A DNA stretch of 64,000 bases from Naegleria gruberi (Eukaryota), in NCBI GenBank assembly GCA_000004985.1, contig GG738860.1. The stretch is one strand, 5' to 3'. The position numbers were made by a program, and so were the translations under genes. Below the pieces are notes generated by a model. The model did no database searches, was not told the DNA's origin, and saw only the letters and a program-made list of their open reading frames with translations. This document shows, piece after piece, positions 29,253-30,186 of the stretch; the stretch's first letter is position 1, and each line of letters begins with the position of its first letter.

Positions 29253-30186
29253 AATGTCTTCAGGCAAATTGGAATATACCGTTGTTATTGTTGGTGATGG
29301 TGGTGTTGGAAAGACAAGGTAAAGTGTCAACAATATTTTCTATCAACAACTGACATTTTAGTTTAACAATTTATTTAACAGAGGGAAGATTTGAAGCAGA
29401 ATACAATCCAACTATTGGTATGTTTACAATCCAATAATTATTTAACATTATTATTCAATTATTATTATTCAATACATACATATAATTAGAGGATGTAAGT
29501 TGTAACAATGATCGGAAATATATAATGCTGATAATTATAGACTTATCAGAAAATAATGAATATTAACAATGAAAGATTATTACTCAACATTTTGGATACT
29601 GCAGGTCAGGTAATTACATATTCAAAATATATTATTTTAATAATATTAATGAAATATAGGAGGAATATCAATTGGTAAGTTGACTATTGAAATGTGTAAT
29701 TGTTAAAATTATTAGTTACGTGATCAACATTGGAGATCAGGAGATGGATTTGTCATGTAAGTTTATTAACTCGAGTTCAACACTTTACATTTGAATTTCA
29801 CAGTGTATTTGATGTGACAAATAGGAAGACTTTTGAGGATGTGACAAGTTTTGGTGAACATATTTTGAAGAGTAAGGATGGAAATGAAGTTCCAATTGTA
29901 TTATGTGGAAATAAATGTGATTTACCTGCAACATCAAGACAAGTCACTGAAGTTGAAGCTAAGAAATTATGTGAAGAAAATGAATGGTACTATTTTGAAA
30001 CATCTGCTAAGGTAAGTTGACCAGTAAATTCAATAATAATTTACAAAATTATTATAGAAAGGAACAAATGTTAATATTGCATTTGAAACTCTTTGTAAAG
30101 GTATTATTGAATTTAATAGCACTCCAGCTAAGGAAGAAAAACCAAAAAAGAAAGGATTATTCTCAAAGATATTCAAAAGAAAGTAA
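29253..30186 (+). CDS. Ras-family small GTPase (about 190 aa, no C-terminal CAAX), 8 exons
   Basis: Exon coordinates:
- 29253..29317
- 29361..29416
- 29490..29494 (5-nt microexon AGGAT)
- 29541..29609
- 29660..29674 (15 nt)
- 29716..29756
- 29804..30011
- 30058..30186

Introns are 43, 73, 46, 50, 41, 47 and 46 nt, all GT-AG.

Spliced product: MSSGKLEYTVVIVGDGGVGKTSLTIYLTEGRFEAEYNPTIEDTYQKIMNINNERLLLNILDTAGQEEYQLLRDQHWRSGDGFVIVFDVTNRKTFEDV...LCGNKCDL...ETSAKKGTNV...KRK*. It has the G1-G5 motifs and the Ras TIEDSY switch-I motif. Confidence 0.8.

What the first reader, a model, noticed from the sequence alone, without database searches (positions are those of the whole stretch)
29253..30186. 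Ras-family GTPase gene split into 8 exons with a 5-nt microexon and a 15-nt exon, among otherwise intron-poor neighbours
A 190-residue Ras-like protein can be reconstructed only by splicing 7 GT-AG introns of 41-73 nt.

One exon is just AGGAT (29490-29494). It supplies the invariant E-D of the switch-I motif TIEDTYQK. Another exon is 15 nt and encodes EEYQL, right after the DTAGQ motif.

Every junction is phase-consistent and reproduces conserved Ras motifs (GDGGVGKTSLTIYL, DTAGQEEY, NKCDL, ETSAK).

The protein ends KIFKRK with no CAAX cysteine, so any membrane association would need to be polybasic or occur by another route.

Such microexon packing contrasts with the 1000-codon intronless eIF5B nearby.
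Basis: partly seen in the sequence, partly recalled or inferred. Interest (0 to 1): 0.55.

Follow-up and report, generated by a model that had tools for sequence, protein, structure and literature searches.

The report
Ras gene with conserved 5-base exon
This is a real Naegleria gruberi Ras-type signalling gene cut into eight pieces, one only five bases long; that tiny piece is conserved in three related amoebae, and the structure is unusual for this genome but of a kind already known in plants and animals.

Summary
Splicing eight exons (29254-30186, + strand) through seven GT-AG introns of 41-72 nt gives a 195-aa Ras protein: Pfam Ras 175.7 bits, about 50% identical to K-Ras. The first two junctions are off by one base, and the product is 195 aa, not 190.

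The window is Naegleria gruberi. The 5-nt exon AGGAT (29490-29494) sits in an identical 13-nt island, AG|AGGAT|GTAAGT, within otherwise unalignable introns in N. lovaniensis, N. fowleri and Willaertia magna. Chance expectation is 1e-4 to 4.5e-4 per species. No single-intron alternative keeps switch I.

The public N. gruberi model (XP_002678703.1, 165 aa) already contains the 5-nt and 15-nt exons. It skips exon 4 (TYQK...DTAGQ) and uses a wrong acceptor.

Both public N. fowleri models miss the microexon. N. fowleri and N. lovaniensis probably also hide a 3-nt exon (GTG, Val) in switch II.

The intron upstream of the microexon is shared with dictyostelid and cnidarian Ras genes.

No RNA evidence was available. 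This is a new, misannotated member of a known kind (conserved ultra-short microexons). Interest is moderate to low.

The parts
29254..29318 (+). Exon 1 (65 nt): ATG, then MSSGKLEYTVVIVGDGGVGKT plus 2 nt. Contains the P-loop (G1).
   Evidence: The same exon is in the public model XP_002678703.1.
29319..29361 (+). Intron 1 (43 nt, GTAAAG..TTTTAG, phase 2). Specific to N. gruberi; absent in N. lovaniensis, N. fowleri and Willaertia.
29362..29417 (+). Exon 2 (56 nt): SLTIYLTEGRFEAEYNPTI plus the first base (G) of the Glu codon.
29418..29489 (+). Intron 2 (72 nt, GTATGT..AATTAG, phase 1 in the codon equivalent to Ras Glu37). The position is shared with Willaertia, both other Naegleria species, two dictyostelids and a sea anemone.
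29490..29494 (+). Exon 3: the 5-nt microexon AGGAT. It completes Glu-Asp of switch I (PTIEDTYQK).
   Evidence: The 13-nt island AG|AGGAT|GTAAGT is identical in four species.
29495..29540 (+). Intron 3 (46 nt, GTAAGT..TTATAG, phase 0 after Asp). Present in all four Naegleriidae, and in none of the five other Ras genes examined.
29541..29609 (+). Exon 4 (69 nt): TYQKIMNINNERLLLNILDTAGQ, containing G3/DTAGQ. The public N. gruberi model skips it.
29610..29659 (+). Intron 4 (50 nt, GTAATT..ATATAG, phase 0 after DTAGQ). Within Naegleriidae only N. gruberi has it. Acytostelium Ras has an intron at the same position.
29660..29674 (+). Exon 5: the 15-nt exon GAGGAATATCAATTG (EEYQL, switch II).
   Evidence: also in the public model
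29675..29715 (+). Intron 5 (41 nt, GTAAGT..TATTAG, phase 0). Shared with N. lovaniensis and N. fowleri. In Willaertia the intron lies 1 nt upstream (phase 2).
29716..29756 (+). Exon 6 (41 nt): LRDQHWRSGDGFV plus 2 nt.
29757..29803 (+). Intron 6 (47 nt, GTAAGT..TCACAG, phase 2). The public model uses a downstream acceptor, so its exon starts at 29825 and it loses IVFDVTNR.
29804..30011 (+). Exon 7 (208 nt): from IVFDVTNRK to ETSAK, including G4 (NKCD) and G5 (SAK).
30012..30057 (+). Intron 7 (46 nt, GTAAGT..TTATAG, phase 0 after ETSAK). Shared by all four Naegleriidae.
30058..30186 (+). Exon 8 (129 nt including the TAA stop): the C-terminal helix and the CAAX-less basic/hydrophobic tail ...KPKKKGLFSKIFKRK.

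Best explanation
This is the Naegleria gruberi orthologue of a Ras-subfamily small GTPase found across Discoba. It has intact G1-G5 motifs and a Ras-type effector loop. In place of a prenylated CAAX box it has a basic/hydrophobic tail.

The gene is a genuine eight-exon gene. Its seven short introns (41-72 nt) are most likely removed one by one by intron definition.

The 5-nt exon AGGAT lies between two introns. The upstream one (phase 1 in the codon for Ras Glu37) is probably old, because dictyostelid and cnidarian Ras genes have an intron at the same place. The downstream one (phase 0 after Asp38) is seen only in Naegleriidae.

Five bases cannot hold U1 snRNP on the downstream donor and the 3'-splice-site factors of the upstream intron at the same time. 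The two flanking introns must therefore be removed sequentially. An invariably perfect GTAAGT donor probably helps.

Shown here: the exon chain, its conservation, purifying selection, and Ras family membership by sequence.

Inferred, not shown: that mature mRNA contains the microexon, that inclusion is constitutive, the order of splicing, and membrane binding through the tail.
For: 1. The spliced product is a complete Ras domain. Pfam Ras scores 175.7 bits over profile positions 2-160 of 162, and it aligns to K-Ras at E about 1e-47 over 183 residues.

2. The public N. gruberi protein XP_002678703.1 maps exactly to the window. It uses the 5-nt and 15-nt exons but skips 29541-29609 and starts exon 7 at 29825. 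It scores only 98.8 bits.

3. Orthologous, syntenic loci have CDC45 and RsfS upstream, as in the window. They carry a 5-nt exon AGGAT in the annotated N. lovaniensis and W. magna models and an unannotated one in N. fowleri.

4. In a four-species alignment the flanking introns are unalignable, except for AG|AGGAT|GTAAGT. Synonymous sites between genera are saturated (dS 1.1-2.1). dN/dS is 0.065-0.24.

5. Chance occurrence of the motif is 1e-4 to 4.5e-4 per species. No single-intron alternative preserves switch I. Skipping the microexon, or retaining either flanking intron, gives a premature stop.

6. The intron position TI|1|E is shared with Tieghemostelium, Acytostelium and Actinia Ras genes. 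The position DTAGQ|0|E is shared with Acytostelium.

7. All 7 donors downstream of tiny exons are GTAAGT, against 4 of 17 other donors in these genes.

8. Published work on plant microexons reports the same features: conserved GTRAGT donors, the impossibility of assembling on both flanking introns at once, and pervasive misannotation (PMC8831610).
Against: No transcript evidence of any kind was available:
- The exact 195-aa protein is not in the 15-billion-sequence collection.
- Two metagenome scans for the spliced and genomic junction patterns found nothing.

The public model skips exon 4. If that model was built from a cDNA, an exon-4-skipped isoform exists.

The four species are related, so the conservation and donor statistics are not independent observations.

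Splicing order and constitutive inclusion are inferences.

The tail shows no helical hydrophobic moment above shuffled controls, so an amphipathic-helix anchor is not supported. Only the conserved basic/hydrophobic composition is.
Confidence: 0.85

Rival explanations
1. The microexon is an alternative, regulated exon. Skipping it shifts the frame and gives a 48-residue truncated product, which is probably degraded. Ras output would then be tuned by unproductive splicing, for example during the amoeba-to-flagellate switch.
For: Skipping the 5-nt exon gives a stop after 48 codons. Microexons are difficult substrates, so some skipping is plausible. Exon skipping and intron retention have been detected in N. 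gruberi RNA-seq (PMC6142364).
Against: There is no evidence for regulation. The perfect GTAAGT donor in all four species suggests selection for efficient, not conditional, inclusion. No conserved intronic element or RNA structure surrounds the exon: fold z-scores are -1.0 to +0.6 and the introns are unalignable.
Confidence: 0.08
2. The public 165-aa model is the true main product: a Ras-like protein that lacks DTAGQ because exon 4 is skipped and a downstream acceptor (exon start 29825) is used.
For: It is the deposited model (XP_002678703.1). It is in frame and uses canonical sites.
Against: It removes the G3 motif and the residues IVFDVTNR, and it halves the Pfam score (98.8 against 175.7 bits). 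Exon 4 is conserved as coding sequence in all three orthologues, and the whole spliced CDS is under purifying selection. The W. magna and N. lovaniensis models include it.
Confidence: 0.04
3. The exon chain is an artefact of pattern-seeking. The locus would then be a decayed pseudogene or non-coding, and the Ras motifs were stitched together by free choice of GT/AG pairs.
For: AT-rich DNA offers many GT and AG dinucleotides. There is no RNA evidence here.
Against: - The GT-AG chain giving this protein is unique, apart from a trivial 3'-end variant.
- The full-length Ras domain scores 7e-52.
- The same architecture is found at syntenic loci in three other species, with dN/dS of 0.065-0.24.
- The chance probability of the microexon motif is at most 4.5e-4 per species.
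Confidence: 0.02

Closest known systems
Conserved, misannotated ultra-short microexons of land plants (1-nt exons of APC11 and VPS55; adjacent 5-nt and 12-nt exons of rice Os08t0562700), PMC8831610
   Same: Both are coding exons of 15 nt or less, flanked by canonical sites with a conserved strong GTRAGT donor. They are needed to keep the frame, they are conserved over long evolutionary distances, and they are routinely missed or mis-modelled by annotation pipelines. Two tiny exons can lie close together in one gene.
   Different: This case is in a heterolobosean amoeba with about 0.7 introns per gene, not in an intron-rich plant. The flanking introns are very short (46-82 nt). There is no RNA validation yet.
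Human MPC1 4-bp constitutive microexon (PMC9929638)
   Same: Both are microexons whose length is not a multiple of three. Such an exon must be included for the reading frame to survive. The abstract reports that the MPC1 exon is constitutively included.
   Different: MPC1 lies among long vertebrate introns and depends on exon-definition elements. Here the introns are about 50-70 nt, so intron definition is the expected mode (inference).
H-, K- and N-Ras (solved structures; vertebrate-type gene structure seen in locus L009)
   Same: About 50% identity across the whole G domain. The G1-G5 motifs and the effector loop match: YNPTIEDTYQK here, YDPTIEDSYRK in Ras.
   Different: There is no CAAX box or C-terminal cysteine. 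The vertebrate-type gene has four coding exons (111, 179, 160 and 117 nt) with the intron at E37|0|D38. Naegleria has introns on both sides of E37-D38 (I36|1|E37 and D38|0|T39) and eight exons.
Dictyostelid Ras genes (Tieghemostelium lacteum P0038, Acytostelium subglobosum P0067) and Actinia tenebrosa HRas (P0075)
   Same: All share the phase-1 intron in the Glu37 codon (DPTI|1|E). Acytostelium also shares DTAGQ|0|EEY with N. gruberi.
   Different: None has the second intron after Asp38, so none has a microexon. They keep the CAAX box.
Rit/Rin-type CAAX-less Ras-family GTPases (from my own knowledge, not tested here)
   Same: Both are Ras-family G domains that lack a prenylation signal and end in a basic cluster containing aromatic or hydrophobic residues. 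In Rit/Rin that cluster is thought to bind acidic membranes.
   Different: Orthology is not indicated: the best structural-database matches are K-, H- and N-Ras, not Rit. The tail motif G[LF][FL]SK[IL]FK+K, or WKFWKK in jakobids and Pharyngomonas, is specific to Discoba relatives.

Membership tests
Ras family small GTPase (Pfam PF00071) | Profile match above the curated threshold across the whole domain | tested here: met
   175.7 bits against a cut-off of 21.6, covering profile positions 2-160 of 162
Ras family small GTPase (Pfam PF00071) | G1 P-loop GxxxxGK[ST] | tested here: met
   GDGGVGKT, residues 14-21
Ras family small GTPase (Pfam PF00071) | G2/switch I threonine and Ras-type effector loop (PTIEDSY) | tested here: met
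   YNPTIEDTYQK. This is met only when the 5-nt exon is included.
Ras family small GTPase (Pfam PF00071) | G3 DxxGQ with the catalytic Gln, and Ras-type spacing to RD in switch II | tested here: met
   DTAGQEEYQLLRD. The 6-residue spacing matches 116 of 121 homologues. The public model lacks this motif.
Ras family small GTPase (Pfam PF00071) | G4 NKxD and G5 SAK | tested here: met
   NKCD and ETSAK
Ras family small GTPase (Pfam PF00071) | GTP binding and hydrolysis; GEF/GAP-regulated switching | not testable with these tools
   Needs biochemistry
Classical Ras proteins (H/K/N-Ras type) | C-terminal CAAX prenylation signal | tested here: not met
   The protein ends ...GLFSKIFKRK with no Cys in the last 25 residues. 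The same holds in the orthologues and in 18 of the 121 best homologues.
Conserved ultra-short coding microexon (15 nt or less) | Internal exon of 15 nt or less, bounded by canonical AG and GT | tested here: met
   ttag|AGGAT|gtaagt at 29490-29494 and atag|GAGGAATATCAATTG|gtaagt at 29660-29674
Conserved ultra-short coding microexon (15 nt or less) | Required for the frame and a conserved protein motif; no alternative splice keeps them | tested here: met
Conserved ultra-short coding microexon (15 nt or less) | Exon and both flanking introns conserved in orthologues | tested here: met
   The 5-nt exon is found in N. lovaniensis, N. fowleri and W. magna. The 15-nt exon is specific to N. gruberi.
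Conserved ultra-short coding microexon (15 nt or less) | Presence in mature mRNA (junction reads or cDNA) | not testable with these tools
   No read data were available. The exact protein is absent from the collection, and the junction scans were empty.
Introner or transposon-derived introns | Introns similar to each other or to other copies in the genome | tested here: inconclusive
   There are no matches beyond AT-rich 11-22-mers within the 64-kb window. The whole genome could not be searched.

The most novel reading that the evidence does not exclude
This Ras gene may be a relic of an intron-rich ancestral gene structure that has persisted in an otherwise intron-depleted genome and is still turning over. 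Two of its intron positions coincide with amoebozoan and cnidarian Ras introns. Within one family, three different intron layouts occupy the same 15 nt of switch II. The gene carries 5-nt and (in N. fowleri and N. lovaniensis) 3-nt exons. If RNA data confirm this, Naegleriidae would offer a compact natural system for studying intron gain, sliding and loss. It would also show how an intron-definition spliceosome handles exons shorter than the footprint of a single snRNP. A further possibility is that inclusion of the 5-nt exon gates Ras output.
Probability: 0.15. Interest if true: 0.6.

Novelty: new member of a known kind. Interest (0 to 1): 0.35.

Why it matters
Practical value:
- The public protein for this gene is wrong in N. 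gruberi. It lacks DTAGQ.
- Both public N. fowleri models are also wrong: one starts inside intron 3 and the other skips the P-loop exon and the microexon, so both lose the P-loop and switch I.
- The N. lovaniensis model is probably one residue short.
- N. fowleri is the brain-eating amoeba. Analyses of its Ras signalling inherit these errors.

Conceptual value:
- Frame-critical microexons of 5 nt or less, conserved across genera, are documented here in a discoban protist. So far they have been documented mostly in plants and animals.
- The gene has 11.9 introns per kb of CDS, in a genome averaging 0.7 introns per gene.
- It adds a datum on shared, possibly ancient, intron positions in Ras genes.

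It does not reveal a new mechanism.

Tried and rejected
1. Shifting the first two by one base fixes it.

2. Single-intron models without the microexon: only three stay open, and all delete switch I.

3. Fetching the N. gruberi record via the public protein failed; it is not on record. The window's identity was instead established by exact mapping of XP_002678703.1 onto it.

4. Transcript-level support was sought three ways, all without result:
- The exact 195-aa protein is not in the collection.
- A metagenome scan for the spliced junction gave 0 hits.
- A metagenome scan for the genomic exon 2 - intron - microexon pattern gave 0 hits.

5. Literature searches:
- No paper links Naegleria with a described microexon. 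Two incidental co-mentions were not read.
- No paper mentions any accession of this gene.

6. Introner or repeat origin of the introns: no similar copies in the window.

7. A conserved RNA structure presenting the microexon: fold z-scores are -1.0 to +0.6 and no common structure appears.

8. An amphipathic-helix reading of the C-terminal tail: the hydrophobic moment is not above shuffles, so the idea was dropped.

9. My first exon-chain search for the Actinia gene could return an arbitrary path. I redid it as a fewest-introns search and got the same result.

10. A resemblance of the tail to the bacterial MinD membrane-targeting sequence is only a recollection. It was not tested and is not used.

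Full report
**What is in the sequence**

The region 29254-30186 (+ strand) can be spliced into an open 588-nt CDS through seven GT-AG introns.

Used literally, they break the frame.

The correct exons are:
- 29254-29318
- 29362-29417
- 29490-29494 (AGGAT)
- 29541-29609
- 29660-29674 (15 nt)
- 29716-29756
- 29804-30011
- 30058-30186

The introns are 43, 72, 46, 50, 41, 47 and 46 nt, with 10-30% G+C.

The product is 195 aa, not 190: MSSGKLEYTVVIVGDGGVGKTSLTIYLTEGRFEAEYNPTIEDTYQKIMNINNERLLLNILDTAGQEEYQLLRDQHWRSGDGFVIVFDVTNRK...ETSAKKGTNV...KPKKKGLFSKIFKRK.

**What the protein is**

- It matches Pfam Ras (PF00071) at 7e-52 and 175.7 bits, over profile positions 2-160 of 162.
- The 60 best matches among solved structures are all K-, H- or N-Ras. 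E-values are about 1e-47, and the alignment shows about 50% identity over 183 residues.
- G1 (GDGGVGKT), switch I (YNPTIEDTYQK), G3 (DTAGQ), G4 (NKCD) and G5 (ETSAK) are intact.
- There is no CAAX box.

**Where the window comes from, and what is already public**

The best database hit is 'ras family small GTPase [Naegleria gruberi]' (XP_002678703.1, EFC45959.1, D2VAI0), 165 aa.

An exhaustive search for GT-AG exon chains that translate exactly to that protein finds one chain in the window, apart from a trivial 3'-end variant: 29254-29318, 29362-29417, 29490-29494, 29660-29674, 29716-29756, 29825-30011, 30058-30186.

So the window is N. gruberi, and both tiny exons have been in the public model all along. 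That model has two faults:
- It skips exon 4 (TYQK...DTAGQ).
- It uses an acceptor 21 nt too far downstream, which removes IVFDVTNR.

The corrected 195-aa sequence is not among about 15 billion public protein sequences.

**Comparative test of the microexon**

I fetched the orthologous loci of N. lovaniensis (L001), Willaertia magna (L002) and N. fowleri (L003). All have CDC45 upstream on the opposite strand, as in the window. The two Naegleria loci also have RsfS there, again as in the window.

- Exact exon chains for the annotated proteins contain a 5-nt exon in N. lovaniensis (L001 3249-3253) and W. magna (L002 3165-3169).
- In N. fowleri the sequence aaag|AGGAT|gtaagt lies at L003 2958-2962, upstream of a truncated public model that starts at an ATG inside intron 3.
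- A second public N. fowleri model (CAG4712317.1) jumps from exon 1 to exon 4 and has no P-loop.
- Rebuilding the N. fowleri gene with the microexon raises its Ras score from 121.5 or 123.5 bits to 173.5 bits.

In the four-species alignment, the two flanking introns are unalignable except for the island AG|AGGAT|GTAAGT.

Synonymous sites are saturated between N. gruberi, the N. lovaniensis/N. fowleri pair and Willaertia (dS 1.1-2.1). The spliced CDS is under purifying selection: dN/dS is 0.065 for N. lovaniensis versus N. fowleri and 0.10-0.24 for the other pairs.

**Chance and alternatives**

- In 20,000 dinucleotide-preserving shuffles of the interval between exons 2 and 4, AG-AGGAT-GT appears with frequency 1e-4 to 4.5e-4 per species. 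Any Glu-Asp-coding version appears at 2.5e-4 to 3.3e-3.
- Only three single-intron GT/GC-AG joins keep the frame open. All remove switch I residues and use poor donors (GCAGAA, GTTTAC).
- Skipping the 5-nt exon gives a stop after 48 codons. Retaining either flanking intron also gives an early stop.

**A further tiny exon in the relatives**

The public N. lovaniensis and N. fowleri proteins have DTAGQEDYQ-IRD, one residue short in switch II. Among the 121 homologues held, 116 have six residues between DTAGx and RD. Only these three public models have five.

Inside the corresponding annotated intron, both species carry aag|GTG|gtaagt (L001 3467-3469, L003 3150-3152). Using it as a 3-nt exon has three effects:
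- It adds Val and restores the spacing.
- It splits a 143-nt (N. lovaniensis) or 116-nt (N. fowleri) intron into 77+63 or 56+57 nt.
- It raises the N. lovaniensis Ras score from 165.7 to 172.4 bits.

I consider this probable (about 0.85) but unproven.

**Intron positions in context**

On Ras numbering, the four Naegleriidae share three introns: I36|1|E37, D38|0|x39 and K147|0|x148.

Other introns are lineage-specific:
- N. gruberi has GKT|2|S and Q61|0|E62.
- N. lovaniensis and N. fowleri have V|1|G in the P-loop and Q|0|V.

The switch II stretch has three different layouts within the family.

The phase-1 intron in codon 37 is at exactly the same place in the Ras genes of the dictyostelids Tieghemostelium and Acytostelium and of the sea anemone Actinia. 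Q61|0|E62 is shared with Acytostelium.

A vertebrate-type HRas gene (L009) has the classical 111/179/160/117-nt exons, with E37|0|D38.

The simplest reading is that a Naegleriidae-specific intron arose 5 nt downstream of an older intron. That is an inference. Parallel gain at a favoured site is not excluded.

**How unusual is it locally?**

- 77% of the window lies in stop-free stretches of at least 150 codons. None of the Ras gene does.
- The eIF5B-type ORF (13087-16098, 1003 codons) and the CDC45 ORF (598 codons) are long and uninterrupted.
- In W. magna the two flanking genes are intronless, judging from gene length against protein length.
- A Rab-like GTPase in the window (50672-49836, - strand) has two introns.
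- N. gruberi averages 0.7 introns per gene (PMC5862402).
- This gene has 7 introns in 588 nt, or 11.9 per kb of CDS. Vertebrates have 6-7 per kb (abstract of PMC3174169).

**How it most likely works**

The protein is a conventional GTP/GDP switch with a Ras-type effector loop. This follows from sequence homology and was not tested biochemically.

Its membrane association cannot be by prenylation. The tail (net charge +7 to +8, four conserved bulky hydrophobic residues) is conserved in the orthologues. The nearest relatives have WKFWKK-type tails: Pharyngomonas, Stygiella and Andalucia. Electrostatic plus hydrophobic membrane binding is the best guess. A helical-moment test did not support an amphipathic helix.

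For the RNA, introns of 41-72 nt imply recognition across the intron. A 5-nt exon is shorter than the region contacted by U1 on the donor (positions -3 to +6). The two flanking introns therefore cannot be engaged simultaneously and must be removed in sequence. This is established reasoning for microexons, restated in PMC8831610.

All seven donors that follow a tiny exon in these genes are the perfect GTAAGT, against 4 of 17 other donors (Fisher p = 0.001; the data are not independent). No conserved RNA structure or intronic element was seen.

**Comparison with what is known, and verdict**

Conserved, frame-critical and routinely misannotated microexons of 1-15 nt are well documented in plants (PMC8831610). 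Constitutive microexons of lengths that are not multiples of three exist in human genes (MPC1, PMC9929638).

I found no paper linking Naegleria with a described microexon, and none mentioning this gene.

The finding is therefore real and correctly interpreted, and it improves on the public gene models in three species. It is a new member of a known kind rather than a new mechanism.

The main gap is the absence of RNA evidence. N. gruberi RNA-seq exists (PRJEB23822) and would settle the question.

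Noticed in passing
L001 3467-3469 (N. lovaniensis); L003 3150-3152 (N. fowleri): There is a probable 3-nt exon GTG (Val), flanked by aag| and |gtaagt, inside the annotated intron after ...DTAGQEDYQ. All three public models lack this residue. They are the only 3 of 121 homologues with five rather than six residues between DTAGx and RD.
   Followed up: partly
L003 2696-3814 (N. fowleri): Both public N. 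fowleri models of this gene are wrong. XP_044560582.1 (164 aa) starts inside intron 3. CAG4712317.1 (170 aa) skips the P-loop exon and the microexon. The rebuilt 201-aa protein scores 173.5 bits on Pfam Ras, against 121.5 and 123.5 bits.
   Followed up: yes
window 29418-29489; L004, L007, L008: The phase-1 intron in the codon for Ras Glu37 is at the identical position in Naegleriidae, two dictyostelids and a sea anemone. A vertebrate-type HRas gene (L009) has its intron 2 nt further on (E37|0|D38). N. gruberi's intron after DTAGQ coincides with one in Acytostelium.
   Followed up: partly
window 29610-29715; L001 3390-3532; L002 3309-3353: Three different intron layouts occupy the same approximately 15 nt of switch II within one family. 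N. gruberi has Q|0|EEYQL|0|L. N. lovaniensis and N. fowleri have Q|0|V|0|I. Willaertia has A|2|V. This suggests recent intron gain, loss or sliding.
   Followed up: no
window 30139-30183 and the C-termini of P0002-P0009, P0012, P0022, P0044: The nearest relatives all lack CAAX. They end in basic/hydrophobic tails: G[LF][FL]SK[IL]FK+K in Naegleriidae, GLFGGLFKKK in unidentified environmental sequences, and WKFWKK in Pharyngomonas, Stygiella and Andalucia. This suggests a Discoba-wide Ras subfamily that is not prenylated.
   Followed up: partly
window 50672-49836 (- strand): There is a Rab-like small GTPase of 223 aa (DTAGQERFRT, ending RCFV). It has three exons (50672-50593, 50493-50381, 50314-49836) and two introns of 99 and 66 nt.
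   Followed up: partly
window 30240-33049 (- strand): Two long ORFs (347 and 487 codons) with no Pfam match lie tail-to-tail with the Ras gene. In N. lovaniensis and N. fowleri the same position holds a single gene of about 1,170-1,215 aa. The N. gruberi ORFs are therefore probably one gene, interrupted by at least one intron or a frame change.
   Followed up: no
window 1-10000 and 56000-60000: G+C drops to 19-27% at the left end of the window and to 24-27% around 56-60 kb, against 29-37% elsewhere (one bin, 22-24 kb, is also lower at 28%).
   Followed up: no
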